64,000 nucleotides of DNA from a virus. A program made the translations under genes and the position numbers. The stretch lies in IMG/VR virus record IMGVR_UViG_3300029368_000161; one strand, written 5' to 3'. A model generated the notes under the pieces. That model ran no database searches. It was given only the letters and a program-made list of their open reading frames with translations, and was not told where the DNA came from. How positions within the stretch are numbered: position 1 is the stretch's first letter; each line of letters starts with the position of its first letter. This document shows, one piece after another, positions 6,553-53,029 of this stretch.

Positions 6553-6609
6553 TTTTATTAAGAAAATAAACAGGATAAAGGCACGGCTCCGGCTGTGTCT
6601 TTTTTTGTA

Positions 6610-6660
6610 TTTCATATTAAAAATGTAGAGATTTTTTTTGCGAAAGGAGAAAGAGAAAAT
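6610..6660 (+). promoter_or_regulatory. Type-A promoter/leader module upstream of the CCA-adding enzyme gene
   Basis: tttcatattaaaaatgtagagattttttttgcgaaaggagaaagagaaaatATG. Confidence 0.55.
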
Positions 6661-8043
6661 ATGAAAAAAGAAGAATTAATACCGGATGTCCGCTCACGGG
6701 AAGATATTAACCGGCTATATCAGGTGTTTACCGCATCAGGATATCAGCTGTATCCCGTTGGGGGCTGTGTGAGGGATGCTGTAGCCGGAACAGCGCCACA
6801 CGACTACGATATGTGTACAAATGCTGTTCCGGCGCGGGTCATTCAGATTTTGCAGGACGGGCAGATTCCGTTCCATGCACCGGGGATCGACTTTGGTACG
6901 GTCATTGCAGATGTAAGAGGGAATTCCTACGAAATTACGAGCTTCCGGTCAGAAAGAGAATATACCGATGGCCGGCATCCGGGTAAGATCGTATTTGAGA
7001 AGGAGATAAATAAGGATCTTTCCAGAAGAGACTTTACGATCAATGCGATGGCTTACGATCTGCAGTCCGAAACGGTCATTGACCCATTCAACGGCATCAG
7101 CGACCTACAGAACGGCATCATTAAATGTGTTGGAGACCCTTTCGAGCGCTTTCAGGAGGACGGGCTTCGGATTGTCCGGGCACTTCGATTTGCAATCCGC
7201 TATGGGGCAGATTTTGATGGGAAAACGGCGGGAGCAATCCATGAGAACCTTGGAATGCTGCAGAACGTTTCAAAAGAACGTATCCTTATGGAATTTAGGA
7301 AAATCCTGAGTATGGATAAACCGGTTTCCAGAGTTTTTGTGGAATATGCAGATGTAATTACCTGCCTTATTCCGGAATTAAAGTCGTGCGTACATTTCAA
7401 TCAGAACAACAGATACCATAAGCATGATGTGTACGAGCATCTGCTCGCTGTAACAGATTTGTGCCAGACCACAAAATTTGAGATTAAGATGGCAGCACTG
7501 CTTCACGATATTGGAAAGCCGGACAGCTACATGGAAGATGAGAACGGACATGGTCATTTTTACGGGCATCCGGCAGTATCCGCGGAGATTGCAAAGGGAG
7601 TTCTGAAAACGGATTTTAAGGGGTTGAAGACGGAAGAATATGACCGTATCGTTGCGCTTGTGAAAACGCACGACAAATCAATTTCGTCGTCAAGAAAATC
7701 CGTAAAAAGATTCATCGCTGCTCATGGAGCGGATTTCCTCGATGACTGGGCTGTTTTAAAGAAAGCAGATTTCGATGACCACATTTTCCCGTCAGAACCG
7801 CCAAAAAACTGGTTTACGGATATTCCAGATGTCCTGAAAATCCGTGATGAACTTGTGGCAGAGGAAGAGTGCTTTTCCCTGAAAGATCTGGCAGTTAATG
7901 GGAAAGATCTGATGAAAGAACTTGGCCTAAAACCGGGAAAGAAGATTGGTGCTATCCTGCAGCAGATGCTTGAAGCGGTCATTAACGAAACGGTAACAAA
8001 CAATCGGGATGAACTTCTTTCCCTCGCACAGAAACTTATTTAA
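6661..8043 (+). CDS. cca: CCA-adding tRNA nucleotidyltransferase with HD domain
   Basis: GGCVRD motif (LYPVGGCVRDAVAG...DYDM) of the poly(A) polymerase/CCA family. RDFTINAMAYD motif. HD-domain motifs HKHDVYEHLLAV and LLHDIGKP. About 460 aa. Confidence 0.85.
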   Translation: MKKEELIPDVRSREDINRLYQVFTASGYQLYPVGGCVRDAVAGTAPHDYDMCTNAVPARVIQILQDGQIPFHAPGIDFGTVIADVRGNSYEITSFRSEREYTDGRHPGKIVFEKEINKDLSRRDFTINAMAYDLQSETVIDPFNGISDLQNGIIKCVGDPFERFQEDGLRIVRALRFAIRYGADFDGKTAGAIHENLGMLQNVSKERILMEFRKILSMDKPVSRVFVEYADVITCLIPELKSCVHFNQNNRYHKHDVYEHLLAVTDLCQTTKFEIKMAALLHDIGKPDSYMEDENGHGHFYGHPAVSAEIAKGVLKTDFKGLKTEEYDRIVALVKTHDKSISSSRKSVKRFIAAHGADFLDDWAVLKKADFDDHIFPSEPPKNWFTDIPDVLKIRDELVAEEECFSLKDLAVNGKDLMKELGLKPGKKIGAILQQMLEAVINETVTNNRDELLSLAQKLI

Positions 8044-11613: not shown

Positions 11614-11729
11614 GATTAAAAGGGTTCGTCTGATGACGGGCTCTTCTTTTATGGCAACCTTCGTGGCAATTTTTCCTATATTTTCTCTTTTCCCAAGATT
11701 TTCTCAAAAACTTTGAAAAAAATTTAAAA

Positions 11730-11780
11730 AATTTCCGAAATCCTTTGACGATTTTTCAAATGGCGCAATATGTGTATGGA
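11730..11780 (+). promoter_or_regulatory. Type-B promoter (TTGACG -35 and conserved AAATGGCGCAATATGTGTAT spacer/-10 block)
   Basis: ctttgacgatttttcaaatggcgcaatatgtgtatgg. Same block as copies at 13155, 19940, 22552, 28975, 33105, 37230, 38130, 41330, 41593. Confidence 0.55.
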
Positions 11781-11999
11781 AAAGGCATAAAAGGATTCAT
11801 GGTCCTGCCTTTTCCTGTGGAGATTCGTCTCTCCACAGACCTCCGAATTTTAAATGTATATCTATGACTGCACTGTCCTCCTGTTACGGGGCAGTACAGG
11901 AGGGGTCCACAGAGCTTTGCCAGCACTGGACACAAAGTGGCTGTTCATCCGGTTCGAGTCCGGAGGATTCCTTTCGTATAAGAAGAAAGGGGGAAAAGA
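11781..11999 (+). promoter_or_regulatory. L2 structured 5' leader (paralog of 41371-41580), ending in a T-arm-like hairpin tccggttcgagtccgga
   Basis: Shared about 80-nt block caggaggggtccacag...cacaaagtggctgttcatccggttcgagtccggaggattcc with 41455-41545. An internal hairpin ctgtggagattcgtctctccacag is present. Confidence 0.4.
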
Positions 12000-12224
12000 A
12001 TGAGCAAAGAAGCATTAACTTTGGAAGAATTAAAAAACATGCAAGGACAGCCCGTGTGGTGCCCGGACCTCAACTCTTACGGCATCATCAAGTGTGACAC
12101 GTCCGGGAAATGGAAGGGAATTCCCTATATCCACGGTTCCCAGTATTTCCCGGAATTTGGAACCTCGACGGATTTTGAATACAACATCTTAGAGCGCGGA
12201 CTTGTCTGCCAGCATATTCTCTGA
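12000..12224 (+). CDS. hypothetical protein (74 aa)
   Basis: RBS AGGGGGAAAAGA-ATG. Confidence 0.5.
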   Translation: MSKEALTLEELKNMQGQPVWCPDLNSYGIIKCDTSGKWKGIPYIHGSQYFPEFGTSTDFEYNILERGLVCQHIL

Positions 12225-19978: not shown

Positions 19979-20115
19979 GTAAAGGTCATAAACCGGGCTG
20001 CCAGGGTTACCGGCTGGCAGAAATCCTTTCGAAAATGTTTACGCTTCCGGGAAAACCCGGAAAGGAGCAGGAGGACAGCAGCACATGCTGCTTCCGGGTG
20101 CGATTCCCGGATGCT
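19979..20115 (+). promoter_or_regulatory. L1 structured 5' leader RNA, copy a (candidate riboswitch/attenuator) upstream of the helicase gene
   Basis: gtaaaggtcataaaccgggctgccagggttaccggctggcag...ttccgggaaaacccggaa...GGAGCAgg..agcagcacatgctgct..tccgggtgcgattcccgga-TGCTTC-tttt. About 85% identical to the copies at 33143 and 38171. The outer stem covaries across copies (GGAGCA/TGCTTC here). The T-arm-like hairpin is followed by a U-tract. Confidence 0.5.
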
Positions 20116-20184
20116 TCTTTTACAAGACCGCACGAAGCGGCGCAAAAACCACATAAACATGACAAAATACAGGGAGATTAAAAA

Positions 20185-22485
20185 ATGAATCAGAATAAGA
20201 AGATAGCAGAGAAAAAATCAAGACCATACCAGCAGGAATGCATTGATAAGGTAGACAGCTTAAAAGAAGGAAGATTCCTGATTGCTCTTGCAACAGGGCT
20301 TGGGAAGACATGGATCTTCTCCCATTTTAAGAGATACGGAAGAGTGCTTATTCTTTCACACAGGGATGAACTGGTCAACCAGCCGAGACGGTATTTCGAC
20401 TGTAGTTTTGGCGTAGAAAAGGCAGAAAACCATTCCAATGGGGAAGAGGTAGTATCTGCGAGTGTTCAGACACTCAGCCATGACTCCCGTCTTAAGCAGT
20501 ATAAGCCGGACGATTTCCACACGATCATCATTGATGAGGCGCACCACGCTGCCGCGCCATCCTATAAGAAGATCTTAAATTACTTTTCCGGCGCTAAGCG
20601 TGTGATCGGTGTCACGGCAACTCCGAAGCGTAGCGACAACGTCCGGTTAGATGACGTTTTTAACGAGATTATTTATGCAAAGGACCTTCGTTGGGGGATT
20701 AAAAATAAATATTTAAGTCCGGTGCACTGCCGGGAGGTCCGTGCAAAATATTCCCTGAAAGGCGTAAAAAAATCTATGGGGGATTTTAATGTATCCGATT
20801 TGGACGGTTGTATTACGGAAGAAGCTGTAATAAGTGTTGCAAAAGTTCTTACAGACTGTCTTCAGGAGAATCGGCATATTCTTATTTATTGTACTACTGT
20901 CAGAACCTGTAATTTCCTGAAGGCAGTAGTTGACAAACTGCTCCCGGAAAAAGAACGTGGCAGTGTTGCTGTTTTATCAGGGAAAACGCAGGAAGAAGAT
21001 AGAAAAAATATGCTTGATGGTTTTATGAACGGGAGTGTCCGCGCCATTATTAACTGCATGGTTTTAACAGAAGGTACAGATCTTCCTATTACGGATACCA
21101 TTATCAACTTCCGGCCGACGTGCAACGCGTCTTTGTATCAGCAGATCATCGGAAGAGGAACCCGGCTCTATGAAGGTAAGGAAAACTGTTTATGCATTGA
21201 TATTCTTCCAGATGATGGCAGCGGAACAAATCTGTGTACAGCTCTTACTCTTTTTGGTATAGATGCAAAACTTCTTGGAAAGAAACAGTCTCGAATGCTT
21301 GAAGGTGAGACTGATCCGCTTGAGATTAGCGATGAAATTGCAGGACGATTTGCAGAACTTACAAAGGCATATGAATATCGGTTGGAGCAGGTTAATCGCT
21401 TTGTGCAGGAGCAGGAAGAAATTATATCTTCTGCGCGGAAGAAACCACATGCAGATTTAAACGACCTTGCGCATGCAGTAGATAAATATAATTCAAAGAA
21501 AATGGATGAATTCCAAAATGATTATGATTTCCTTGGAATGGATTACTCACTTATGCCGGATACGGAACATCGTTATTGTATCAAACCTACATGGAATGAC
21601 CATATTTACCTTGCTGATCCAGATGTTATGGGAAATACAACAGTTACGTTTGATCTTACTGCTAGTGTCGGGAAATATTATATCGGTGAAATGAAAATGC
21701 AGGATGCAATTTCATTTGTTCATGATTTTTGTATGATATCTCCAGATTATATGAAATATTCCTGGAACGTGGCATTACAGGATGAATGGGGGAAAATAAA
21801 AGCAACTGAAAATCAAATTGGACGTCTTATGAATGAGTATGACGGGTTTCACAAAGGAAATATTAACAAACTTCAAGCATCCAGACTGATTGATCTTGCC
21901 TCTCGTATTTCGAAGATGAAGGCAGAGGGGAAAATGATGCTTATTACACCAAGAATGCAGGAAAAAACAATTGATAAAAAAAAGAAAATGTTTAAGGAAA
22001 TACTCGAAAAGGAACTGAGGGCAAAAGAGCAGGGGCGTAGTGAGTTTGGAGAATTCCAGTCGAAAATCTTTGCTTTAGCAGAAAAAAAGAAAAAAGACGA
22101 AGAGAAATTAAAGAACCAAAAGCCTTTGGAAGAAGAAATGCTCGAAAATGGGGCGATTACAGTTAATATTGCTGTTTTTAGTTCAAAAAAAACAGCAAGC
22201 GATGCGCAGATAAAATTTCTTGGTAATTTAAAAGATAAATTAAAAAACAGAGGAGTGGCTGTTGATAAAAAAATTCCTTATATAGGAATGGGAGCAGAAG
22301 AGGCAAGTGTATATATTACTATATTAAAAACGCTTGTAGATCGTAACGTAGACCTTATAAAATATGGTAAAAAAATTTATTTTAATCCAAATACAATCAT
22401 GAGTGTTGTATTAAAACTAAAGGACACTTCATCCAGAGAAATTAAATGTTGTATCCCGTTCGAAAAAATAGAAGAATTGAGATAA
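20185..22485 (+). CDS. SF2 DEAH-box helicase (type III restriction Res / phage helicase-like) with lysine-rich C-terminal extension
   Basis: Walker A LATGLGKTW, motif II IIIDEAHHAA, motif III VIGVTATP, motif VI QQIIGRGTR. 766 aa. There is no HD nuclease domain at the N-terminus. Confidence 0.8.
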   Translation: MNQNKKIAEKKSRPYQQECIDKVDSLKEGRFLIALATGLGKTWIFSHFKRYGRVLILSHRDELVNQPRRYFDCSFGVEKAENHSNGEEVVSASVQTLSHDSRLKQYKPDDFHTIIIDEAHHAAAPSYKKILNYFSGAKRVIGVTATPKRSDNVRLDDVFNEIIYAKDLRWGIKNKYLSPVHCREVRAKYSLKGVKKSMGDFNVSDLDGCITEEAVISVAKVLTDCLQENRHILIYCTTVRTCNFLKAVVDKLLPEKERGSVAVLSGKTQEEDRKNMLDGFMNGSVRAIINCMVLTEGTDLPITDTIINFRPTCNASLYQQIIGRGTRLYEGKENCLCIDILPDDGSGTNLCTALTLFGIDAKLLGKKQSRMLEGETDPLEISDEIAGRFAELTKAYEYRLEQVNRFVQEQEEIISSARKKPHADLNDLAHAVDKYNSKKMDEFQNDYDFLGMDYSLMPDTEHRYCIKPTWNDHIYLADPDVMGNTTVTFDLTASVGKYYIGEMKMQDAISFVHDFCMISPDYMKYSWNVALQDEWGKIKATENQIGRLMNEYDGFHKGNINKLQASRLIDLASRISKMKAEGKMMLITPRMQEKTIDKKKKMFKEILEKELRAKEQGRSEFGEFQSKIFALAEKKKKDEEKLKNQKPLEEEMLENGAITVNIAVFSSKKTASDAQIKFLGNLKDKLKNRGVAVDKKIPYIGMGAEEASVYITILKTLVDRNVDLIKYGKKIYFNPNTIMSVVLKLKDTSSREIKCCIPFEKIEELR

Positions 22486-22590: not shown

Positions 22591-22659
22591 AGGAAGTAAA
22601 CAGTTAAAAATAATCCCACGGGGATAGAGGTTAGTGAATAGCTTTAAGCCACTGTTATA

Positions 22660-22893
22660 GTTGCACCACGCAAGGGTGCAGGGGTGAAATATTATACTGA
22701 ATCGTCGCTGCCTGCATAGATATAGTTGCATCCCTTATGGGATGTATGGGTTGAAATTCAATAGAAACAGATGCATTCGGAGGTGTTACAAGTTGCACCC
22801 CCGCAAGGGGTGCATGGGTTGAAAATAAGAAATGGTAGGAAGGAATTCAGATATGAACATTAGTTGCATCCCGCAAGGGTGCAGGGGTGAAGT
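22660..22893 (+). CRISPR. Mini CRISPR array M1: 4 degenerate type I-C-like repeats, 3 spacers
   Basis: Repeats are gttgcaccacgcaagggtgcaggggtgaaat, gttgcatcccttatgggatgtatgggttgaaat, gttgcacccccgcaaggggtgcatgggttgaaaat and gttgcatcccgcaagggtgcaggggtgaag. Spacers are 34-36 nt. Spacer 2 (tcaatagaaacagatgcattcggaggtgttacaa) recurs in M3. Confidence 0.7.
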
Positions 22894-23052
22894 AAAAGGA
22901 TGTTGCCATATATGTCAACCAAACTCGACTATTGAATAAATAACCGAGCATGATTCCTTCGGAACTGCTGAATCATGTAGTCTGACTGGTGAAGCGATGG
23001 TATACATATTTGAACAAATTAAACAAAAATACAGAATCAGAGGGAAAATAAT

Positions 23053-29545: not shown

Positions 29546-30460
29546 TTAACCTGCCAGAAGCTCAGCCTCAGTGTTCGTTCTTTTATACAATCGTTCGAAT
29601 TCGTTTGGCGACATATAGTTGCAATGGCTATGAATTCGTTTCGTATTGTAGAAAGCTTCCAGATATTCAAAAATCAACTGGTATGCTTGCTTATAATCAC
29701 GGATTTTAAAGCGATTGAGCCATTCACGTTTGATAACAGAATGAAAGGATTCAATGCATGCATTATCCCACGGAAAAGCTTTCTTCGAATAACTGCGCTG
29801 CATATTTTCGGTTGCTTTTTTATATTCCTTTGCAACATATTGGCTGCCACGATCCGAATGGATAATTAATGGTTGATCGATATTTCGGCGAGCTTTGGCT
29901 TTGTTTATCGTATCAATCACGCAGGATACTTCCAGTGTTTCTGAAAGCGTCCAGGCTATGATTTTTCTGGAAAATAAATCCATAACACTGGTCAGATAGA
30001 CAAATCCATCTATTGTCCAGATGTAGGTAATATCCGAACACCAGACTGCATTCGGACGATCAGGATTAAACTGCTCATCGAGGATATTTTGTAATTCAGT
30101 GCTGAAATCGGAATCTTTTGTGGTGATCGTCCATGGTTTGCTCCACTGAGCACGGATTCCCATTTGGCGCATATATGTACCAACGGTTCTTTCCGAAATG
30201 ACTTCACCAGTTTTTCGAAGTTCTACAGTGATTTTCGGAGCACCGTAGTTCTGCTTGGAATCATCATAAATATCCTGTATTTTTGCTTTTACAGATTCAC
30301 GGCGTTTTTCTGTATCAGAAGGCACGCGGTGGAGCCATGCACGATATCCTGAACGTGAGACACCTAAAAATTTCAACATTCCGGAGACGGAAAACCGGCG
30401 TCCAGCCTTTTGGGCAGCTTCCGTCTTCTCAGACACTTCGAGATAAATGGCTTCCGTCAT
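29546..30460 (-). CDS. IS3-family transposase OrfB (DDE integrase core)
   Basis: 304 aa. ...CSDITYIWT...LIIHSDRGSQYVAKEYK...DNACIESFHSVIKREW... (DD(35)E rve fold). Confidence 0.85.
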   Translation of the reverse strand: MTEAIYLEVSEKTEAAQKAGRRFSVSGMLKFLGVSRSGYRAWLHRVPSDTEKRRESVKAKIQDIYDDSKQNYGAPKITVELRKTGEVISERTVGTYMRQMGIRAQWSKPWTITTKDSDFSTELQNILDEQFNPDRPNAVWCSDITYIWTIDGFVYLTSVMDLFSRKIIAWTLSETLEVSCVIDTINKAKARRNIDQPLIIHSDRGSQYVAKEYKKATENMQRSYSKKAFPWDNACIESFHSVIKREWLNRFKIRDYKQAYQLIFEYLEAFYNTKRIHSHCNYMSPNEFERLYKRTNTEAELLAG

Positions 30461-33142: not shown

Positions 33143-33300
33143 GTAAAGGTCATAAACCGAGCTGCCAGGGTTACCGGCTGGCAGAAAATCCTTTCGAAAA
33201 ATGTTTACGTTCCGGGAAATCCCCGGAAAGGATAGTGGGTACGCAGCGCAAGTTATTCCGGGTTCGACTCCCGGATATCCTTTTTCAAAATTGCAGGAAA
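33143..33300 (+). promoter_or_regulatory. L1 structured 5' leader RNA, copy b
   Basis: gtaaaggtcataaaccgagctgccagggttaccggctggcagaaaatcctttcgaaaaatgtttacgttccgggaaatccccggaaAGGATAgtgggtacgcagcgcaagttattccgggttcgactcccggaTATCCTTTTT. Outer stem AAAGGATA/TATCCTTT. Confidence 0.5.
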
Positions 33301-34456: not shown

Positions 34457-34508
34457 GAAAGAAGCCGGGGAATCCCGACTTTTCTGCTGCATTGTGTGTA
34501 TATTTTAA

Positions 34509-34582
34509 CGCCGCCTGCGGGATTCGAACCCGCGGATAAAGAGTTCAAAGCTCCCTGCGTTAACCTTTTCGCCAAGGCGGAG
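34509..34582 (-). tRNA. tRNA-Gln(TTG)-like (terminal acceptor pair mismatched)
   Basis: Reverse complement folds with T-arm GCGGG-TTCGAAT-CCCGC. Anticodon stem GGGAG/CTCTT with loop CTTTGAA. No encoded CCA. Confidence 0.5.
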
Positions 34583-34650
34583 CACACCCGGAAGGACTCG
34601 AACCCTCGTTACCGGTTTTGGAGACCAGTTTCTGTCCATCAGACAGGTGC
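34583..34650 (-). tRNA. tRNA-Trp(CCA)
   Basis: Anticodon loop CTCCAAA flanked by stem CTGGT/ACCGG. T-loop TTCGAGT. Acceptor GCACCTG/CGGGTGT has G.U pairs. Confidence 0.55.
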
Positions 34651-34654
34651 GTAA

Positions 34655-34725
34655 CAGGCGATAATGGAATCGAACCATTGTTTTCTGAGTCAGAATCAGA
34701 TGTCTTACCATTGAACGAATCGCCC
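34655..34725 (-). tRNA. tRNA-Gln(CTG)
   Basis: Acceptor GGGCGAT/ATCGCCT. Anticodon stem TCTGA/TCAGA with loop TTCTGAC. T-arm AATGG-TTCGATT-CCATT. Confidence 0.6.
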
Positions 34726-34727
34726 AG

Positions 34728-34801
34728 TATCCCCAAAGGGACTCGAACCCTTAACCGACAGATTAGAAATCTGTTGCTCTTTCCAATTGAGCTATGGGGA
34801 T
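34728..34801 (-). tRNA. tRNA-Arg(TCT)
   Basis: Clean cloverleaf: ATCCCCA-TA-GCTC-AATTGGAAA-GAGC-A-ACAGA-TTTCTAA-TCTGT-CGGTT-AAGGG-TTCGAGT-CCCTT-TGGGGAT-A. Confidence 0.8.
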
Positions 34802-34807
34802 ATATAG

Positions 34808-34897
34808 CGCAGACACCGGGGATCGAACCCGGACAGCGGGTGTGCCGCATGCCACATTAGCAGTGTGGAGGGGTACCATTTACCTTTATATGTCTGC
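34808..34897 (-). tRNA. tRNA-Ser(GCT)-like, 90 nt with long variable arm (D-arm atypical)
   Basis: Anticodon stem-loop CCACA-CTGCTAA-TGTGG. Variable arm GCGG-CACA-CCGC. T-arm CCGGG-TTCGATC-CCCGG. Acceptor GCAGACA/TGTCTGC. Confidence 0.5.
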
Positions 34898-34902
34898 ATA
34901 AG

Positions 34903-34974
34903 AGGCATCGGAGGGGATCGAACCCTCGCCTTCCGGGTTGCAGCCGGACGCCTTCGCCGTTTGGCTACGATGCC
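34903..34974 (-). tRNA. tRNA-Cys(GCA)
   Basis: GGCATCG-TA-GCC...GGC-TCCGG-CTGCAAC-CCGGA-..GAGGG-TTCGATC-CCCTC-CGATGCC-T. The U73 discriminator is typical of Cys. Confidence 0.8.
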
Positions 34975-35004
34975 ATATAATTCTTCCCGATAAGAGAAGA
35001 TGAG

Positions 35005-35088
35005 CGCTGGGGCAGGGAGTCGAACCCTGATATCCTTTCGGAATGACGGTTTTCAGGACCGTTGCTTTACCAGTTGAGCCACCACAGC
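35005..35088 (-). tRNA. tRNA-Ser(TGA) with long variable arm
   Basis: Anticodon stem ACGGT/ACCGT with loop CCTGAAA. Variable arm TCC-GAAA-GGA. T-arm CAGGG-TTCGACT-CCCTG. 3-bp D stem GCT/AGC. Confidence 0.6.
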
Positions 35089-35333
35089 AAAAATAAAAGC
35101 ATACACCTCTCAATCGAAAGATGTATGCTTTGCAATTCCAGGTATTTCCAATATTCTCCCGGAAATTTCCCTACAATGACCACATTTCTTTCAATTTGAG
35201 ACAATATTTATTTGCACGACAACTACGCCAGATACATGACTGCGACTGACTCATACTTGCCTGTGAATATTGTCTCATTACTGCTGTAATCATTGATTTT
35301 CCCTTCCTTTCCTTGGTTTTCTTGAATATTTAG

Positions 35334-35407
35334 TGTGTCTGGTGGGACTTGAACCCGACGACCCCACGATTAAAAGTCGCGTGCTCTGCCAACTGAGCTA
35401 CAGACAC
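35334..35407 (-). tRNA. tRNA-Lys(TTT)
   Basis: GTGTCTG-TA-GCTC-AGTTGGCA-GAGC-A-CGCGA-CTTTTAA-TCGTG-GGGTC... acceptor CAGACAC-A. Strongly resembles Bacillus tRNA-Lys. The T stem has irregular pairing. Confidence 0.7.
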
Positions 35408-35412
35408 ATAAG

Positions 35413-35484
35413 CGGATCAGGAGGGAATCGAACCCTCATCTTCCGGTAGACAGCCGGATGTACTAGCCGCTATACTACAGATCC
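35413..35484 (-). tRNA. tRNA-Asp(GTC)
   Basis: Anticodon stem TCCGG/CCGGA with loop CTGTCTA. T-arm GAGGG-TTCGATT-CCCTC. One T.T mismatch in the acceptor stem. Confidence 0.65.
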
Positions 35485-35488
35485 ATAA

Positions 35489-35561
35489 AGCTCCCGTCCG
35501 GCTTCGAACCGGAAACCTTCTGATTACAAGTCAGATGCACTACCAGTTGTGCTACAGGAGC
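35489..35561 (-). tRNA. tRNA-Thr(TGT)
   Basis: GCTCCTG-TA-GCAC-AACTGGTA-GTGC-A-TCTGA-CTTGTAA-TCAGA-AGGTT-TCCGG-TTCGAAG-CCGGA-CGGGAGC-T. Confidence 0.8.
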
Positions 35562-35645
35562 AGGAACACTTCCGACGGGTGCTGCCCCGCTATCTCCGCC
35601 GTGACAGGGCGGTGACTCTGTTGTTTGTCCTCGGAAGTAAATAAG

Positions 35646-35727
35646 TGCGCCGGGGAGGACTCGAACCTCCGGTGTTTCTTTGTGGCTGATTTACAGTCAG
35701 CTGCTGTCGCCTCTGAGCCACCGACGC
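35646..35727 (-). tRNA. tRNA-Tyr(GTA), 82 nt with extended variable region
   Basis: Acceptor GCGTCGG/CCGGCGC. Anticodon stem GCTGA/TCAGC with loop CTGTAAA. T-arm GGAGG-TTCGAGT-CCTCC. Confidence 0.65.
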
Positions 35728-35732
35728 ATAAG

Positions 35733-35804
35733 CTGGTCCGGAGGGTCTCGAACCCTCAACGCCCCGGTTAACAGCCGGGTGCTCTACCATTGAGCTACGG
35801 ATCA
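35733..35804 (-). tRNA. tRNA-Asn(GTT)
   Basis: D-arm GCTC-AATGGTA-GAGC. Anticodon stem CCCGG/CCGGG with loop CTGTTAA. T-arm GAGGG-TTCGAGA-CCCTC. One A.C mismatch in the acceptor. Confidence 0.7.
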
Positions 35805-35805
35805 G

Positions 35806-35877
35806 AGCATGTGACGGGTCTCGAACCCGCCCGTCCTGCTTGGAAGGCAGGTGTGCCGCCAACAACACTTCACATGC
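35806..35877 (-). tRNA. tRNA-Gly(TCC)
   Basis: Acceptor GCATGTG/CACATGC with discriminator U. Anticodon stem CCTGC/GCAGG with loop CTTCCAA. 4-nt variable loop. T-arm GCGGG-TTCGAGA-CCCGT. Confidence 0.7.
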
Positions 35878-35942
35878 ATGCGGATAAAAGAAGTGCCTGT
35901 TTTCTCTTATCCATTCAGTTTTTTTACCGCATCGCTGCGGAG

Positions 35943-36014
35943 TGGACAGGAGTGGTAACGATCCACCCTGTAAGGATTTTCAGTCCTTCGCTAATCCATC
36001 TCAGCTACCTGTCC
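35943..36014 (-). tRNA. tRNA-Phe(GAA)-like with non-canonical T-loop (ATCGTTA)
   Basis: Acceptor GGACAGG/CCTGTCC (perfect 7 bp). 8-9 is TA. Anticodon stem AAGGA/TCCTT with loop CTGAAAA. T-arm GGTGG-ATCGTTA-CCACT lacks the T54/A58 identities. It lies 65 nt away from the main cluster. Confidence 0.45.
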
Positions 36015-38170: not shown

Positions 38171-38345
38171 AAAGGTCATAAACCGAGCTGCCAGGGTTAT
38201 CGGCTGGCAGAAATCTTTTCGATATTTGTTTACACTCCGGGGAAACCCGGAAGGGGTAGTGAGGACGCAGCGTGTGCTGTTTCCGGGTTCGATTCCCGGG
38301 TATCCCTTTTGACTGCCACATACGGTCTTCTCAAAATTCAGCCGT
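38171..38345 (+). promoter_or_regulatory. L1 structured 5' leader RNA, copy c
   Basis: gtaaaggtcataaaccgagctgccagggttatcggctggcag...tccggggaaacccggaa-GGGGTA-gtgaggacgcagcgtgtgctgtt-tccgggttcgattcccgg-GTATCCC-tttt. The loop change GGTTACCGG to GGTTATCGG and the outer stem GGGGTA/TATCCC covary relative to copies a and b. Confidence 0.5.
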
Positions 38346-41012: not shown

Positions 41013-41231
41013 GTTGCGCCCCATTGGGTGCATGGGTTGAAATCTTTATGACCTTCTGAAAAGTGAGGGCATCTTAGTTGCACCCCCGCAAGGGATGTAT
41101 GGGTTGAAATTCAATAGAAACAGATGCATTCGAAGGCGTTACAAGTTGCACCCCGCGAGGGGTGTATGGGTTGAAATTGCAGAAAGCTCAGGATTGGAAG
41201 GTTGCATCCTATGGGATGCATGGATTGAAAC
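41013..41231 (+). CRISPR. Mini CRISPR array M3: 4 repeats, 3 spacers; the middle repeat-spacer-repeat unit is near-identical to M1
   Basis: gttgcgccccattgggtgcatgggttgaaat / ctttatgaccttctgaaaagtgagggcatctta / gttgcacccccgcaagggatgtatgggttgaaat / tcaatagaaacagatgcattcgaaggcgttacaa / gttgcaccccgcgaggggtgtatgggttgaaat / tgcagaaagctcaggattggaag / gttgcatcctatgggatgcatggattgaaac. Confidence 0.7.
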
Positions 41232-41329
41232 GAACATATTTGTTATTATTTATTATTGAGATCAGAAAGGTCTGCAGTCAGTTAATCTGGCTGCAGATTT
41301 TTTTTTGCAATTTTTTAAAAATTTTCCAA

Positions 41330-41370
41330 AATCTTTTGACGATTTTTTAAAAGGCGCAATATACATATTG
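41330..41370 (+). promoter_or_regulatory. Type-B promoter (first of two tandem copies upstream of cas5c)
   Basis: atcttttgacgattttttaaaaggcgcaatatacatattgaagggataaacaggggcttaccg. The +1 region TATTGAAGGRATAAACAGGGGCTTRCCG is shared with the 41593 copy. Confidence 0.5.
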
Positions 41371-41580
41371 AAGGGATAAACAGGGGCTTACCGTTTGTTT
41401 CTTCAATAAGAGTTTTTCTCTTATATGCCTCCTTAAGTTTCCTGCGCTGCATTTACAGCATTTTGGCAGCGCAGGGGGAATCCACAGGACTGCATTTGAC
41501 GTTGTGTGGCGGCCTGCTCATCCGGTTCAACCCCGGAGGATTCCCTTACCGCTTATTTTTGCGGAGACAAAAATTTTAAA
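41371..41580 (+). promoter_or_regulatory. L2 structured leader (paralog of 11781-11999), ending in T-arm-like hairpin tccggttcaaccccgga
   Basis: cagcgcagggggaatccacaggactgcatttgacgttgtgtggcggcctgctcatccggttcaaccccggaggattccc, then a weak terminator ccgcttatttttgcgg. Confidence 0.4.
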
Positions 41581-41592
41581 AAATATTCAAAA

Positions 41593-41632
41593 ATTCTTTG
41601 ACGATTTTTTAAAAGGCGCAATATGTGTATTG
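41593..41632 (+). promoter_or_regulatory. Type-B promoter (second tandem copy, proximal to cas5c)
   Basis: ttctttgacgattttttaaaaggcgcaatatgtgtattgaaggaataaacaggggcttgccg. Confidence 0.5.
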
Positions 41633-41677: not shown

Positions 41678-41709
41678 GTTGTGCCCCTATGGGGTGCATG
41701 GGTAATAAG
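41678..41709 (+). repeat. solitary degenerate CRISPR repeat in the cas5c 5' UTR
   Basis: gttgtgcccctatggggtgcatgggtaataag versus the M3 repeat gttgcgccccattgggtgcatgggttgaaat (hairpin-forming core retained). It ends 9 nt before the cas5c ATG. Confidence 0.55.
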
Positions 41710-41717: not shown

Positions 41718-42392
41718 ATGGAAAAAGAAAAAATGGGAGTGAAACTAAAAGTCTGGGGAGATTACGCATTGTTCACCAGACCAGAACTGAAAACTGAACG
41801 GTATACATACGATGTGATGACACCGTCGGCGGCTAGAGGAATTCTGGAATCTATCTACTGGCATCCGGGACTTCGGTGGTATGTAGACAAGATTCATGTA
41901 TTAAATCCGATTGCCACTACGAGCGTGAGAAGAAATGAACTTCTCAGTAAGATACCAAAGTCAAATATGCTGCAGGCATACAACGGCGGGGATGTGAAAC
42001 TGTATAACTCGTCAAGAGACGATATTATCCAGAGGGCATCTGTTATTCTCCGGGATGTCTGCTATGTGATTGAGGCGCATTTTGAAATGACAGGGAAAGC
42101 GAGCCCAACAGACAGCCCGGCAAAGTTTATAAGTATCTTTAACAACAGGGCAAGAAAAGGGGCATGTTATTCGATGCCGTATTTTGGTGTAAGGGAATTC
42201 CCGGCACACTTTGAACTCTGCGAAGGAGATGAAAAGATCCCATCCTACTATGAAGGACTTCCGGATAAAGATCTCGGGCTGATGCTTTATGATCTGGATT
42301 ACTCCTGCGGTAGAGATATCCAGCCAATGTATTATCATGCGATTATGAAAAACGGCGTTATTGACGTTGGAAACAGTGAGGTGCTTCGATGA
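41718..42392 (+). CDS. cas5c: Cas5c (type I-C Cas5d; Cascade subunit and pre-crRNA endoribonuclease)
   Basis: N-terminus ...KLKVWGDYALFTRPELKTERYTYDVMTPSAARGILESIYWHP matches the Cas5d hallmark. 224 aa. Overlaps cas8c by ATGA. Confidence 0.8.
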   Translation: MEKEKMGVKLKVWGDYALFTRPELKTERYTYDVMTPSAARGILESIYWHPGLRWYVDKIHVLNPIATTSVRRNELLSKIPKSNMLQAYNGGDVKLYNSSRDDIIQRASVILRDVCYVIEAHFEMTGKASPTDSPAKFISIFNNRARKGACYSMPYFGVREFPAHFELCEGDEKIPSYYEGLPDKDLGLMLYDLDYSCGRDIQPMYYHAIMKNGVIDVGNSEVLR

Positions 42393-44128
42393 TCCTTCAG
42401 TCACTTGTGAAATTATATGAAACACTTGCGGATCAGGGAAAAGTGTCCCGTCCTGGCTGGTGTAATGCAAAGGTATCCTATGCGGTGGTTTTAAACCATG
42501 ATGGGACGATTAAAGATATTGTTTCCGTGAAACAGAAAGTGAAGAGAGGAAAGAAGACTGTTGAAATTCCAATAATTATGCAGGTTCCAGAGATGGTCAC
42601 CCGCGCTAACAACATTGCCTCCAGCTTTCTCTGCGAAAATGCAAAGTATCTCTTTGGGATTGACGAAAAGATGAGTTTGCGTACACTGGAATGTTTTAAG
42701 GCGGCAAAGAAAAAACATCTTGATATTCTTGATGTTGTGGATTCACCTGTAGCACAGACGGTATGTAACTTTTTCCGTTCATGGGATCCGGAACAGGCGT
42801 TGGATCAACCGGCTGTTGCAAAACTTGCAGAAGAGTTTTATAAAGGCGGAAACCTCGTTTTTGAAGTAGATGGGGAATATGTGCATGATAATGAAGAAGT
42901 CCGCAGGGCATGGATGGATTACAGCAGTGTACCATATGAAATGGTAATTGGAAGATGCCTTATTACTGGAGAGGAAGCGGAGATTGCCCGCACGCACGGG
43001 AAAATCAAAGGAGTTCCGGGAGCACAGTCATCTGGCGCGTCGCTTGTATCATTTAACGGAGCATCCCTTGAGTCTTATGAAAAAACACAGAGCTACAACG
43101 CGCCGATTAGCACCTATGCGGCGTATGCATATGTGACCGCGCTGAATTACTTGCTTTCTACGGACGGGTATCACAGCAAGGTAGGAGATTCCATGGTGGT
43201 TTTCTGGACAGATTCCGGGGATGTGGATGATGTGAGCAGACTGCGGAAGATGATGGGAAGCATCAATGAAAAGGATCACACCCCTACAGATACGGATGAA
43301 AAACTGTACGTCCTCTGCCTTGCACCAAATGCCGGGCGAATTGCAGTCCGGTTCTTCTATGAGGATGCGATCGGGGTAATCTGGGAAAACCTGTCCGAAC
43401 ATGCCAGTCGGATGAAGATTGTAAAACCAGTATTTGAGGATCAAGAATTTATCAATATCTGGCAGATGCTCATGGAGACAGTCAACCAGAATCTTACAGA
43501 TAAAACACCTGTCCCGCATATGTCAGCAATGACGTTACAGTCAGTCATTTCGGATACACCGTATCCGCAGAGTCTGTATGCAGGTGTGTTATCTCGTATC
43601 CGCGCGGAGCACAAAGGTGTTACTTACAGAAAAGCATCGATTATTAAAGCTTTTTTAATAAAGAACTACAAATGGGAGGAAGGAAAAAATATGGAAGCAT
43701 TAAATGAAGGCTGTAAGGATCGGGCATATATCCTTGGAAGACTGTTTGCGGTTATGGAAAAGGCACAGAAAGAAGCAGTTGGCAATATCAACCAGACAAT
43801 TTGTGATAAGTTTTACAATTCCGCGTGCACAACACCAAGATCGATCTTTCCAGTACTGATCAGGCTATCTAACAGTCATTTAAGTAAGTTGAAACGGACA
43901 AAACCGGGGAGAGGATATTATTTTACAGCTAAAATGCAGGATTTAATGGATAAAATTCCGGTAACAGATGATGATCCGGGATTCCCGCGGCGTTTCTCAT
44001 ATGAGGATCAGGGTAAGTTTGCACTTGGTTATTATCATCAGATGCGGGCGGAATATACAAGCAGTAAGTTAAAAGATAATGATTCAGAAGGTGATCAGAC
44101 AAATGCAGAGAATATGGAGGAAAACTAA
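42389..44128 (+). CDS. cas8c: Cas8c (Csd1, type I-C large subunit)
   Basis: 579 aa, of the size expected for Cas8c/Csd1. Assigned from the conserved order cas5c-cas8c-cas7c and translational coupling to cas5c (ATGA overlap). Confidence 0.7.
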   Translation: MILQSLVKLYETLADQGKVSRPGWCNAKVSYAVVLNHDGTIKDIVSVKQKVKRGKKTVEIPIIMQVPEMVTRANNIASSFLCENAKYLFGIDEKMSLRTLECFKAAKKKHLDILDVVDSPVAQTVCNFFRSWDPEQALDQPAVAKLAEEFYKGGNLVFEVDGEYVHDNEEVRRAWMDYSSVPYEMVIGRCLITGEEAEIARTHGKIKGVPGAQSSGASLVSFNGASLESYEKTQSYNAPISTYAAYAYVTALNYLLSTDGYHSKVGDSMVVFWTDSGDVDDVSRLRKMMGSINEKDHTPTDTDEKLYVLCLAPNAGRIAVRFFYEDAIGVIWENLSEHASRMKIVKPVFEDQEFINIWQMLMETVNQNLTDKTPVPHMSAMTLQSVISDTPYPQSLYAGVLSRIRAEHKGVTYRKASIIKAFLIKNYKWEEGKNMEALNEGCKDRAYILGRLFAVMEKAQKEAVGNINQTICDKFYNSACTTPRSIFPVLIRLSNSHLSKLKRTKPGRGYYFTAKMQDLMDKIPVTDDDPGFPRRFSYEDQGKFALGYYHQMRAEYTSSKLKDNDSEGDQTNAENMEEN

Positions 44129-44129
44129 G

Positions 44130-45041
44130 ATGAGCACACCAATTAAGAACAGATATGATTTCGTAGTATTATTCGACGTAGAGAATGGAAATCCGAACGG
44201 TGATCCGGATGCCGGAAATATGCCGAGAGTTGATCCAGAGACTGGCATCGGGCTTGTGACAGATGCCTGCATAAAGCGCAAGATCCGTAATTATGTGGAA
44301 ACTGTAAAAGAAGATGCAGCCGGGTTCAAGATCTATATTAAAGAGGGGGTCCCGCTGAACCGGAGTGACCTTAAGGCAGTCGAAAGTCTTGGTATTGACG
44401 TCGGTGACGACAAAAATGCACTTGAAGATGTAAAGAAGCTGAAAAAGACAGATGAAGATGTGGATCTTAAGCTCCGTGACTATATGTGTAGTAATTTCTA
44501 TGATATCCGTACATTTGGTGCTGTCTTGACTACCTTTACAAAGGCGGCATTAAACTGTGGGCAGGTACGTGGCCCGGTACAGATTGGTTTTGCAAAAAGT
44601 ATTGATCCTGTTTTCAGCCAGGATATTACTGTAACCAGAGTTGCAATCACAACGGAAAAGGATGCGGAAAAGAAAAATACAGAAATGGGAAGAAAGAGTA
44701 TTATTCCTTATGGACTTTACCGTGTGGAGGGATATATTTCTGCTAATCTTGCCCGTAAGACCACCGGCTTTTCTGAAGACGATCTGGAACTGCTTTGGGA
44801 AGCAATCATTAACATGTTTGAGAATGACCATTCCGCAGCACGCGGGAAGATGGCAGTGCGTGAGCTCATCGTATTCAAGCATAACAGCGAGCTTGGCAAT
44901 TGTCCATCGTACAAACTGTTTGAAACTGTTGATGTTAAGAAGAATGATGGTGTTGAGTTTCCTCGTAAATATTCCGATTATGCAGTGACTATTCATGAGG
45001 ATGCGATTCCGGATGGCGTGACAATGACTCGCAAAATCTAA
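44130..45041 (+). CDS. cas7c: Cas7c (Csd2/DevR family, type I-C backbone subunit)
   Basis: MSTPIKNRYDFVVLFDVENGNPNGDPDAGNMPRVDPETGIGLVTDACIKRKIRNYVE. The GNPNGDPD motif is the Csd2/Cas7 signature. RBS GGAGGAAAACTAAG-ATG. Confidence 0.85.
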   Translation: MSTPIKNRYDFVVLFDVENGNPNGDPDAGNMPRVDPETGIGLVTDACIKRKIRNYVETVKEDAAGFKIYIKEGVPLNRSDLKAVESLGIDVGDDKNALEDVKKLKKTDEDVDLKLRDYMCSNFYDIRTFGAVLTTFTKAALNCGQVRGPVQIGFAKSIDPVFSQDITVTRVAITTEKDAEKKNTEMGRKSIIPYGLYRVEGYISANLARKTTGFSEDDLELLWEAIINMFENDHSAARGKMAVRELIVFKHNSELGNCPSYKLFETVDVKKNDGVEFPRKYSDYAVTIHEDAIPDGVTMTRKI

Positions 45042-52908: not shown

Positions 52909-53029
52909 TTTCTTGCGGAGCAGAGCAGAGGAAGGCTCACCGGGCTCATGACCTGGGTGTCGGATGTTCGATTCCTTTCTCCGCAATTAATTTTAAAAAA
53001 GGGAGGTTATAACATGTTCTAACTGATTA

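What the first reader, a model, noticed from the sequence alone, without database searches (positions are those of the whole stretch)
11781..11999. Second leader family (L2; 11781-11999 and 41371-41580) sharing the same T-arm-like terminal hairpin
About 80 nt are conserved between the two copies (cagg[a/g]gggg..tccacag......cacaaagtggc.g.tcatccggttc[g/a]a[g/c][t/c]ccggaggattcc), both ending in TCCGG-ttcRaNY-CCGGA. One copy precedes a small ORF (12000). The other lies between the two tandem type-B promoters upstream of cas5c. The recurring GGTTCGA-type loop in L1 and L2 suggests a common trans-acting factor recognising a T-loop fold.
Basis: seen in the sequence. Interest (0 to 1): 0.5.

Follow-up and report, generated by a model that had tools for sequence, protein, structure and literature searches.

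The report
tRNA-shaped module ending a leader RNA
Two copies of a ~200-nt non-coding RNA, each just after a repeated promoter-like motif in a large mobile element of gut Firmicutes, end in a tRNA-sized, tRNA-shaped fold that matches no catalogued RNA family and most plausibly recruits tRNA-processing enzymes, which is inferred and not shown.

Summary
The 24-nt core TCCGGTTCRANNCCGGAGGATTCC occurs exactly twice in the window, at 11948 and 41521, against 0 expected by chance. Each copy lies about 180 nt downstream of one of ten copies of a conserved promoter-like motif.

The hairpin is not terminal. It is the T-arm of a 68-74-nt Y-shaped domain made of three helices:
- an 8-10-bp acceptor-like stem
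- one long arm
- a 5-bp T-stem with a UUCRANY loop that abuts the 3' acceptor strand

Upstream of this domain all three sequence types (A, B and C, a diverged lineage) have hairpins P1 and P2, an exposed CCUCC linker, and a hairpin P3 that abuts the domain.

A covariance model built from L2 alone finds the three L1 modules as its next-best hits, ahead of every true tRNA. The joint L1+L2 alignment shows 8 pairs changed on both sides. Within L2 alone, covariation of the core is not significant. Rfam and ARAGORN give no match.

My best reading is inferred: a tRNA-mimic signal for RNase P and RNase Z (plus CCA addition) that releases an sRNA-like 5' part. Copy B has no ORF downstream, so 'leader' fits only copy A. 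The family was found only in this very common gut element.

The parts
11744..11771 (+). Promoter-like motif in front of L2 copy A (TTTGACGATTTTTCAAATGGCGCAATAT)
   Evidence: One of 10 matches, all on +, against 0 expected. It is preceded by a terminator-like hairpin with a T-run at 11620-11655. The simple sigma-70 scan does not call it, so promoter function and the start site are inferred.
11778..11837 (+). L2-A hairpins P1 (11778-11815) and P2 (11816-11837)
   Evidence: MFE folds. The same two hairpins occur in types B and C with different sequences. P1 is anchored by sequence, and 5 of its pairs change on both sides between types.
11838..11867 (+). Single-stranded linker with a conserved CCUCC (11840-11844), which resembles the anti-Shine-Dalgarno sequence
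   Evidence: CCTCC is invariant in all 9 distinct L2 variants. Its predicted unpaired probability is about 1.0 in types A and B and about 0.66 in type C.
11868..11899 (+). L2-A hairpin P3, which abuts the tRNA-like domain with no spacer
   Evidence: In a diverged lineage the loop of P3 carries a 538-nt insertion (L011:9458-9995).
11900..11973 (+). L2-A tRNA-shaped domain: acceptor-like stem P4 (11900-11908 with 11965-11973), long arm P5 (11909-11944), T-arm P6 (11948-11964, loop TTCGAGT)
   Evidence: Folds. A descriptor scan finds it together with the true tRNAs. Model R1 scores it 95 bits. It gets no Rfam match at E<=10 and no ARAGORN call.
12000..12224 (+). 74-aa ORF downstream of copy A (function unknown)
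   Evidence: phrog_32198, E 8e-25. The exact protein is listed in 4371 blocks of assemblies, on contigs of 200-356 kb. L2 stays linked to this ORF when the upstream neighbour differs (L002, L005, L006).
41335..41362 (+). Promoter-like motif in front of L2 copy B
   Evidence: A T-run hairpin follows the CRISPR array just upstream.
41369..41475 (+). L2-B hairpins P1 (41369-41405) and P2 (41406-41424), linker with CCUCC (41428-41432), hairpin P3 (41441-41475)
   Evidence: Fold z-score -5.68. The architecture equals that of copy A. CCUCC is predicted unpaired.
41476..41545 (+). L2-B tRNA-shaped domain: P4 (41476-41483 with 41538-41545), P5 (41484-41517), T-arm P6 (41521-41537, loop TTCAACC)
   Evidence: R1 scores it 78.6 bits on + and 13.4 bits on -. 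It is near-invariant in 10 further assemblies.
41597..41624 (+). Second promoter-like motif downstream of copy B, which heads the cas5c unit
   Evidence: No ORF lies between L2-B and this motif.
20057..20123 (+). L1 copy 1, related tRNA-shaped module (upstream of the helicase gene at 20185)
   Evidence: R1, built from L2 only, scores it 25.2 bits, E 3.8e-4. Fold.
33223..33286 (+). L1 copy 2, related tRNA-shaped module
   Evidence: R1 scores it 18.8 bits, E 0.014. Fold.
38247..38311 (+). L1 copy 3, related tRNA-shaped module (no ORF directly downstream)
   Evidence: R1 scores it 26 bits, E 2.4e-4. Folds. ORF list.

Best explanation
L2 is a ~200-nt structured non-coding RNA. It is transcribed (inferred) from a repeated promoter-like motif of a 200-350-kb extrachromosomal element, either a megaplasmid or a jumbo-phage-like element, of gut Lachnospiraceae.

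It has two parts:
- The 5' two-thirds look like a bacterial sRNA: hairpins P1 and P2, an exposed CCUCC linker, and a closing hairpin P3.
- The 3' third is a tRNA-sized mimic. It has an acceptor-like stem stacked on a canonical T-arm, plus one long arm that replaces the D and anticodon arms. The L1 family ends in the same module.

Most likely mechanism (inferred): the mimic is recognised by the enzymes that mature the element's own CCA-less tRNAs, that is RNase P at its 5' edge, RNase Z after the discriminator-like base, and CCA addition.

That would produce three RNAs without stopping transcription:
- the upstream sRNA-like piece, whose new 3' end is capped by P3
- a small tRNA-like RNA
- the downstream mRNA (copy A), or nothing further (copy B)

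Shown: the anatomy, its conservation, the kinship with L1, and the lack of any database match. Inferred: transcription, cleavage, and any function of the released pieces.

The confidence of 0.35 is for the whole statement, including the processing mechanism. That L2 is a structured RNA with a tRNA-shaped 3' domain shared with L1, I put at about 0.8.
For: - **Fold.** Searches give z-scores of -3.55, -5.68 and -2.18 for types A, B and C. All three share the P1-P6 layout although P1-P3 and P5 differ in sequence. Types A and C are both exactly 212 nt from the motif to +12.
- **tRNA-like geometry.** The core is a 7-bp acceptor stem and a 5-bp T-stem with no nucleotide between them on the 3' side. 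The loop is UUCRANY closed by G-C. The domain is 68-70 nt by that 7-bp register. The same descriptor otherwise recovers only real tRNAs in 128 kb of sequence.
- **Strand.** G.U pairs make the fold specific to the + strand. R1 scores 78.6 bits on + and 13.4 on -.
- **Kinship with L1.** R1, built from L2 only, ranks the three L1 modules directly after the L2 copies. The joint alignment is 96.8% paired with 8 pairs changed on both sides, and 0-1 of 500 shuffles reach that.
- **Processing context.** All 14 tRNAs called by ARAGORN lack an encoded CCA and have trailers that start with U after the discriminator. L2 and L1 trailers are likewise N-UU. A CCA-adding-enzyme-like ORF lies at 6595-8043.
- **Hairpin abutting the module.** P3 in L2, and hairpin 2 in L1, abut the module with 0-2 nt between them. 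This is the layout expected if cleavage creates a hairpin-capped 3' end.
- **Units without an ORF.** Copy B and L1 copy 3 have no ORF downstream, which fits an RNA product better than a translational leader.
Against: - No transcript or cleavage data are available.
- Within L2 alone the core shows only 1 pair changed on both sides, and 271 of 500 shuffles do as well.
- The joint alignment was fitted to the model, and my hand alignment is partly circular for P2 and P3.
- The acceptor-like stem is 8-10 bp, not 7, and its 5' side runs straight into P3. That leaves no single-stranded leader, which RNase P normally prefers.
- L1 has a 6-bp T-stem, so its stacked helix is 15-16 bp against 12 in tRNA.
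- T-loop position 55 varies U/G/C in L1 copy 1.
- By my tally of the strain-level SNPs in helices (variants), 9 preserve pairing and 4 break it, which is not different from chance. One breaking change is a G.A mismatch fixed in the L011 lineage.
- The 33-nt block covering the T-arm and 3' strand is invariant between lineages whose downstream protein is only 81% identical. That points to sequence-specific recognition beyond shape.
- Longer folds give competing pairings between the 3' acceptor strand and the downstream Shine-Dalgarno region.
Confidence: 0.35

Rival explanations
1. L2 is a cis-acting structural switch in the leader. The pyrimidine-rich segments (the CCUCC linker and the UUCCUUU 3' acceptor strand) and the purine-rich segments (the GGAGG 5' strand and the downstream Shine-Dalgarno sequence) can pair in alternative ways. 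Formation of the tRNA-like fold would then decide whether the downstream ribosome-binding site is free.
For: The extended fold of copy A pairs UUCCUUUC of the 3' acceptor strand with GAAAGGGG of the ORF's Shine-Dalgarno region. In type C the linker CCUCCU pairs with AGGAGG at the foot of P4, in the MFE structure and with 34% probability. In L1 copy 2 the MFE pairs the linker AUCCUUUC with the acceptor 5' strand instead of forming the tRNA-like stem.
Against: Copy B and L1 copy 3 have no ORF to regulate. The alternative pairings are not the same in the different copies, and the predictions change with the length folded. Purine and pyrimidine tracts give such pairings easily. This model leaves the conserved T-loop consensus unexplained.
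Confidence: 0.2
2. L2 is a tRNA decoy or sponge. The module would titrate or mislead a protein that binds the acceptor/T-arm face of tRNA, for example a host tRNA-targeting defence nuclease or nucleotidyltransferase toxin, a modification enzyme, or the CCA-adding enzyme.
For: The T-arm and 3' acceptor strand are invariant in sequence across lineages whose flanks diverge. There are five copies per 64 kb behind a strong-looking repeated motif. The element invests in tRNA supply and repair, with a tRNA array and a CCA-adding-enzyme-like ORF.
Against: There is no conserved anticodon-loop mimic, and that loop is the usual target of defence nucleases. The long arm differs between types. No candidate partner was found among about 55 ORFs scanned. 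The idea is entirely inferential.
Confidence: 0.13
3. L2 is a decayed tRNA gene, or a tRNA-gene fragment left by integration or recombination, with no function of its own. Its conservation would reflect only recent common ancestry.
For: The domain is tRNA-sized. Its T-stem equals that of the element's tRNA-Thr. Strain-level SNPs do not significantly favour pairing (my tally). One lineage tolerates a 538-nt insertion in P3 and carries a mismatch in the stem.
Against: All five copies have the same orientation and the same position behind the repeated motif. The 5' acceptor strand is present and complementary, unlike in att-type 3' fragments. Paralogues A and B are only ~74% identical overall yet keep the whole architecture. 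L1 and L2 keep the stems through changes on both sides. A 33-nt block is invariant while its flanks diverge.
Confidence: 0.08
4. L2 is a promoter-proximal RNA that acts on the transcribing RNA polymerase, as the put elements of phage HK022 do, to make it resistant to terminators across the long + strand gene blocks.
For: Several copies lie immediately downstream of a repeated promoter-like motif. The window has 58 of 74 ORFs on +, and all ten motif copies are on +.
Against: Half of the promoter copies lack L1 or L2. Nothing in this model explains the T-loop consensus or the tRNA-like dimensions. It cannot be tested with these tools.
Confidence: 0.06
5. The feature is a DNA operator. The inverted repeat TCCGG-N7-CCGGA would bind a dimeric regulator, and the apparent RNA fold would be incidental.
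For: It is a perfect 5-6-bp inverted repeat that is conserved in sequence.
Against: The 7-nt spacer follows the T-loop consensus (T, T/G/C, C, R, A) in all six distinct versions. The flanking 7-10-bp stem relies on G.U pairs that exist only in + strand RNA. The site lies ~180 nt downstream of the promoter-like motif.
Confidence: 0.04

Closest known systems
tRNA (Rfam RF00005)
   Same: 7-bp acceptor core contiguous with a 5-bp T-stem. 7-nt loop UUCRANY closed by G-C. Overall length of about 70 nt. No encoded CCA and a U-rich trailer, like the element's own tRNAs.
   Different: It has no D-arm and no anticodon stem-loop with U33; one long variable arm takes their place. The closing stem extends to 8-10 bp. 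The tRNA model gives no match at E<=10 and ARAGORN makes no call.
mascRNA / MALAT1 and MEN-beta tRNA-like elements (RF01684), from my own knowledge
   Same: A tRNA-like fold sits directly 3' of a structured non-coding RNA. In those systems RNase P cleavage makes the 3' end of the upstream RNA, and RNase Z plus CCA addition finish the small tRNA-like RNA. That is the mechanism I propose here.
   Different: Those elements are from the eukaryotic nucleus, and the upstream RNA is capped by a triple helix rather than a hairpin. There is no sequence or model match. Cleavage is untested here.
Bacterial Y RNAs (YrlA; Chen et al. 2014, PMC4201824, seen but not read in full)
   Same: A bacterial or phage non-coding RNA with a tRNA-mimicking domain that includes a canonical T-arm.
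   Different: In Y RNAs the tRNA-like part is internal, and a terminal stem binds Ro60. No TROVE/Ro60 gene was found among about 55 window ORFs. The Y RNA model scores 15.5 bits against an 80-bit threshold, and only on L1.
tmRNA tRNA-like domain
   Same: An acceptor stem plus T-arm with a reduced D region. Some L2 variants happen to have a G.U pair at acceptor position 3:70.
   Different: There is no tag ORF, no pseudoknots and no 3' CCA. The 5' and 3' strands are only about 40 nt apart. ARAGORN finds no tmRNA. The 3:70 G.U pair is not conserved: type B has A-U.
3'-terminal tRNA-like structures of plant RNA viruses
   Same: A mobile genetic element that mimics the shape of tRNA.
   Different: Those structures sit at the genome's 3' end, use a pseudoknotted acceptor and end in CCA for aminoacylation. 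L2 is internal to a DNA element's transcript, has a plain helical acceptor and has no CCA.
put RNAs of phage HK022 (from my own knowledge)
   Same: Paralogous structured RNAs directly downstream of a mobile element's promoters.
   Different: put consists of two simple stem-loops with no T-loop or acceptor-like geometry.

Membership tests
tRNA | 7-bp acceptor stem contiguous with a 5-bp T-stem and a 7-nt T-loop (U54 U55 C56 R57 A58, G53-C61) | tested here: met
   GGGGTCC/GGATTCC and GGAATCC/GGATTCC, T-stem TCCGG/CCGGA, loops TTCGAGT and TTCAACC.
tRNA | D-arm and an anticodon arm with a 7-nt loop (cloverleaf) | tested here: not met
   A single long arm of 34-36 nt whose inner sequence differs between types. 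A forced cloverleaf is not conserved between the copies.
tRNA | Score at or above the Rfam RF00005 gathering threshold, or a call by ARAGORN | tested here: not met
   No tRNA match even at E<=10 on either copy. Neither copy is among the 14 ARAGORN genes.
tmRNA | tRNA-like domain plus a tag-peptide ORF and pseudoknots | tested here: not met
   ARAGORN reports no tmRNA. No frame is shared between the copies across the module, as I read it from the sequence.
Bacterial Y RNA (YrlA) | Match to the Y RNA models and an adjacent Ro60 (TROVE) gene | tested here: not met
   No Rfam hit on L2. L1 scores 15.5 bits against an 80-bit threshold. No TROVE domain in the ORFs scanned.
RNase P/RNase Z-processed tRNA-like element (mascRNA type) | Endonucleolytic cleavage at the 5' and 3' edges of the mimic, and CCA addition | not testable with these tools
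   Only the context agrees: CCA-less tRNAs with U-start trailers, N-UU trailers on L1 and L2, and a CCA-adding-enzyme-like ORF.
Intrinsic terminator / attenuator | G+C-rich hairpin followed directly by a U-tract | tested here: inconclusive
   The scan flags the T-arm of copy A with the tail GGATTCCTTT but flags nothing at copy B. The U residues are part of the P4 stem.
T-box or other known riboswitch/leader families (Rfam 15) | Match to the family covariance model | tested here: not met
   Over the whole window, only tRNAs reach their gathering thresholds. Nothing relevant appears at E<=10 on either copy.
tRNA-gene fragment at an integration site (att) | Only the 3' part of a tRNA gene, next to an integrase, with no 5' acceptor strand | tested here: not met
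   The complementary 5' strand is present in all types. No tyrosine or serine integrase was found; the only hit is an rve transposase at 29546-30460. There are five copies, each behind the promoter-like motif.

The most novel reading that the evidence does not exclude
L1 and L2 are a new class of chimeric transcripts in a very common gut mobile element. A tRNA-shaped module would hijack the host tRNA-maturation enzymes to release, without any terminator, small RNAs whose exposed anti-Shine-Dalgarno-like seed (CCUCC in L2, AUCCUUUC in L1, both resembling the 3' end of 16S rRNA) binds ribosome-binding sites of host or element mRNAs. The element would in this way reprogramme translation.
Probability: 0.1. 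Interest if true: 0.8.

Novelty: new variant of a known kind. Interest (0 to 1): 0.55.

Why it matters
tRNA mimicry is known from tmRNA, Y RNAs, viral 3' ends and mammalian MALAT1. I found no description of a tRNA-shaped module placed repeatedly just behind the promoters of a bacterial mobile element, and Rfam 15 has no family that matches it.

The element is listed in thousands of blocks of public assemblies, mostly metagenomes, so the RNA is probably abundant in human guts. If the module is cut by RNase P and RNase Z, it would be a bacterial counterpart of MALAT1-type 3'-end formation. It would also be a natural version of the tRNA-spacer trick used in synthetic biology.

The prediction is directly testable with end-mapping data, which may already exist in public metatranscriptomes. 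If the module is instead a decoy or a switch, it still marks an uncharacterised layer of gene control in a dominant gut element.

Tried and rejected
- **Rfam.** The whole window at gathering thresholds gives only tRNAs. E<=10 searches on both copies and on L1 give nothing meaningful.
- **Nucleotide searches.** INPHARED phages, near and distant mode, and PLSDB plasmids: no match.
- **IMG/VR pattern scans.** L2 core, promoter motif and L1 hairpin: 0 hits each.
- **JGI metagenome scan with the L2 core.** 12 loci, all of types A, B or C. No new paralogue or context appeared.
- **GTDB genome scan with a loosened promoter pattern.** The pattern was too loose and gave 120 mostly chance hits. Only L058 and L113 (a Lachnospiraceae isolate) and L147 (Roseburia faecis chromosome) are real relatives, and none has an L1 or L2 module in the 8 kb held.
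- **Homologues of the 74-aa protein.** Only 9 were found. The distant ones (58-64% identity) sit inside operons with no leader.
- **MAFFT on N-padded structural rows.** It shifted type B by one column, so I counted the pairs in Python instead.
- **Coding explanation.** Rejected: the open frames across the module differ between copies A and B (read from the sequence).
- **Recent segmental duplication.** Rejected.
- **Literature.** Five searches found no description of this element or RNA. The pMMCAT megaplasmid that turned up belongs to Bacteroidales and is unrelated.
- **Neighbouring proteins.** PDB and NCBIfam searches gave nothing.

Full report
**1. Observation**

The core TCCGGTTCRANNCCGGAGGATTCC, allowing 3 mismatches, occurs only at 11948-11971 and 41521-41544, both on the + strand, against none in 100 shuffles.

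The pairwise alignment shows two islands of identity: a promoter-like motif and the last ~80 nt. About 120 nt of unalignable sequence lies between them. This is therefore not a recent segmental duplication.

Copy A is followed after 27 nt by ORF 12000-12224. Copy B lies between two copies of the promoter-like motif (41335 and 41597), upstream of cas5c.

**2. Setting**

- **The motif.** TTTGACGATTTTTNAAANGGCGCAATAT occurs 10 times, always on +. Terminator-like hairpins usually precede it. The simple sigma-70 scan does not call it, so transcription from it is inferred.
- **What follows the ten motif copies.** Two are followed by L2 and three by L1. One is followed by a CRISPR array and one by a lone repeat ahead of the cas genes. 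Three run straight into ORFs.
- **Other genes in the window:**
  - a 13-tRNA array plus tRNA-Met
  - a CCA-adding-enzyme-like ORF
  - an NAD-dependent DNA ligase, a helicase, methyltransferases, a flotillin-like protein, and PcfJ-like and LPD1 domains
  - a cas5-cas8c-cas7 set
  - many ORFs with no family match
- **Prevalence.** The 74-aa protein is listed, as an exact sequence, in 4371 blocks of public assemblies, on contigs of 200-356 kb.
- **Kind of element.** Protein relatives occur in Bifidobacterium and Lactococcus megaplasmids and in SPbeta-like phages. No nucleotide match exists in INPHARED, PLSDB or IMG/VR.
- **Likely host.** The same motif lies in front of a type I-C-like CRISPR repeat in the Roseburia faecis chromosome, and it occurs in a Lachnospiraceae isolate. 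The host is therefore probably a member of the Lachnospiraceae.

**3. Anatomy of L2**

Three sequence types exist:
- Type A lies upstream of the 74-aa gene.
- Type C holds the same position in a lineage whose protein is 81% identical (loci L011-L016, L023, L026).
- Type B lies upstream of cas5c.

All three fold into the same layout:
- hairpin P1
- hairpin P2
- a 16-30-nt linker that begins (A/G)CCUCC
- hairpin P3
- directly abutting P3, a Y-shaped domain made of P4, P5 and P6

P4 is an acceptor-like stem of 8-10 bp. Its inner 7 bp are GGGGUCC, GGAAUCC or GGGAUCC paired with GGAUUCC. P5 is a long arm with a conserved CAG/CUG base and a variable interior. P6 is a 5-bp T-stem with loop UUCGAGU or UUCAACC. 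No nucleotide separates P6 from the 3' strand of P4.

Fold z-scores are -3.55, -5.68 and -2.18. Types A and C have exactly the same length, 212 nt. The linker CCUCC is invariant and is predicted to be mostly unpaired.

A simple descriptor (T-arm plus a 7-bp acceptor stem) recovers, in both strands of the window, only the two L2 domains and real tRNAs.

No reading frame is shared by the copies, as read from the sequence.

**4. How strong is the structural evidence?**

- On the L2 core alone (6 distinct sequences), 98% of cells pair. Only one pair changes on both sides, and shuffles do as well in 271 of 500 trials. The 3' strand and the T-arm are simply invariant, and the 5' strand varies only by G.U to A-U or G-C changes.
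- My hand-made structural alignment of full-length L2 gives 96% pairing and 18 of 49 pairs with changes on both sides. For P2 and P3 this is partly circular, because I aligned non-homologous hairpins by their own folds. P1 is anchored by sequence, and 5 of its pairs change on both sides.
- By my tally of the strain-level SNPs in helices, 9 keep pairing and 4 break it. That is not different from chance.
- The L011 lineage has a fixed G.A mismatch in P4 and also a 538-nt insertion in the loop of P3.

The strongest support comes from the sister family. A covariance model built from L2 only (R1) ranks the three L1 modules next after the L2 copies. Their E-values are 2.4e-4, 3.8e-4 and 0.014, and the best real tRNA region has E 0.31. 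The L1+L2 alignment to that model is 96.8% paired with 8 pairs changed on both sides, and 0-1 of 500 shuffles reach that. That alignment was fitted to the model, which favours pairing.

The fold is strand-specific: R1 scores 78.6 bits on + against 13.4 on -.

**5. Comparison with real tRNAs of the same element**

All 14 tRNAs called by ARAGORN lack an encoded CCA. Their trailers start with U after the discriminator, and TTAT is the commonest form. L2 trailers are U-UUCG, C-UUAC and U-UUAA, and L1 trailers are U-UUC, U-UUAC and U-UUGA.

L2 nevertheless has no D-arm or anticodon loop. It gets no tRNA hit at E<=10, and ARAGORN does not call it. It is tRNA-shaped but is not a tRNA.

**6. Mechanism**

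I commit, at modest confidence, to a tRNA-mimic processing and 3'-end-formation signal. RNase P and RNase Z, with CCA addition, would excise the module. That would free a 5' piece with the typical layout of a bacterial sRNA: 5' hairpins, a single-stranded C-rich seed and a terminal hairpin. In copy A it would also detach the mRNA.

Four observations point this way:
- the tRNA-like geometry and the trailer
- the upstream hairpin that abuts the module in both families
- the two units with no ORF downstream (copy B and L1 copy 3)
- the element's reliance on maturation of CCA-less tRNAs

Five observations count against it:
- the closing stem is longer than 7 bp
- there is no single-stranded 5' leader next to the module
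- L1 has a 6-bp T-stem
- T-loop position 55 varies in L1 copy 1
- a 33-nt block is invariant in sequence, which suggests recognition beyond shape

None of the cleavage steps is shown.

**7. Rivals**

- **Structural switch.** Competing purine/pyrimidine pairings do appear in folds. They are not consistent between copies and cannot explain the units that lack an ORF.
- **tRNA decoy.** This would fit the sequence invariance and the copy number, but no partner is known.
- **Decayed tRNA or att fragment.** This is unlikely, given the fixed position and orientation, the presence of the 5' strand, and the compensated stems between L1 and L2.
- **put-like antitermination, or a DNA operator.** Neither explains the T-loop consensus. 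The operator idea also fails to explain the dependence on G.U pairs.

**8. Novelty**

Nothing in Rfam 15 matches. Five literature searches found no description.

The concept of tRNA mimicry is well known, so I rate this a new variant of a known kind. It is a new RNA family, or a pair of families, confined so far to one very prevalent gut element.

Noticed in passing
window 41678-41706: A lone, degenerate CRISPR-repeat-like sequence (GTTGTGCCCCTATGGGGTGCATGGGTAAT) lies between the second promoter-like motif (41597) and cas5c. It might be a crRNA-like RNA that autoregulates the cas genes, but this was not examined.
   Followed up: no
window 41718-45041; arrays at about 22650-22900 and about 41090-41232: The type I-C genes comprise cas5, cas8c and cas7 only. 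The next ORFs have no Pfam match to Cas3, Cas1, Cas2 or Cas4. The array at about 22650 is headed by the same promoter-like motif that precedes L1 and L2 (motif at 22554). The array at about 41090 lies just upstream of L2 copy B.
   Followed up: partly
window 34808-34893 (-): A tRNA missed by ARAGORN and scoring just under the Rfam threshold (28.3 against 29 bits). It has a long variable arm and a GCU anticodon, so it is Ser-like. It is probably one more member of the tRNA array.
   Followed up: yes
window 34508-36014 (-), 52913-52987 (+), 6595-8043 (+): None of the element's tRNA genes encodes the 3' CCA. The element also carries a CCA-adding-enzyme-like ORF: its best NCBIfam match is CCA tRNA nucleotidyltransferase, below the curated cut-off.
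   Followed up: partly
L011:9458-9995 (also L012-L014, L016, L026, L028, L030): A 538-nt insertion sits in the loop of L2 hairpin P3 in one lineage. It has near-identical hairpins near both ends (cccayaggcttgcctgtggga) and a 36-aa ORF, and it follows TTAT. L023 is the same lineage without the insertion. It looks like a non-autonomous IS200/IS605-type element.
   Followed up: partly
L002:223-2021, L005:217-2015: In some strains an IS605-type pair (a Y1 transposase and a TnpB-like OrfB), together with a 117-aa DNA-methylase ORF, lies between the DUF8359 gene and the promoter-like motif of L2. L2 and the 74-aa gene remain intact.
   Followed up: no
L147:7590-7700 (Roseburia faecis JCM 17581 chromosome, about 1.5996 Mb): The same promoter-like motif, including the conserved transcribed start GTATATTGTAAAG, lies in front of a type I-C-like CRISPR repeat in a bacterial chromosome. 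This hints at the host, or at a shared promoter or regulator.
   Followed up: partly
window 20095-20101; L011:19098-19104: The second T-loop base (tRNA position 55) of L1 copy 1 is G in the window and C in L011. The other L1 and L2 copies have T.
   Followed up: partly
window 20023-20032, 33188-33197, 38213-38222: The L1 linker AUC(C/U)UUUCGA is complementary to the 5' strand of L1's own acceptor-like stem (GGAAAGGAU). In L1 copy 2 this alternative pairing is the predicted minimum-energy fold. The linker also resembles the 3' end of 16S rRNA; that resemblance is from memory.
   Followed up: partly
window 11744-11771 and nine other sites: The repeated promoter-like motif has a good -35 hexamer (TTGACG) but no recognisable -10 hexamer at 16-18 nt. 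The invariant block there is GGCGCAATAT. Conservation continues about 25 nt into the presumed transcript (TGAAGGNATAAAC). This may point to an alternative sigma factor or to a regulator site.
   Followed up: no
window 29546-30460 (-): An rve-family transposase with an HTH_21 domain, so an IS3-like insertion sequence. It is one of the few ORFs on the - strand.
   Followed up: no
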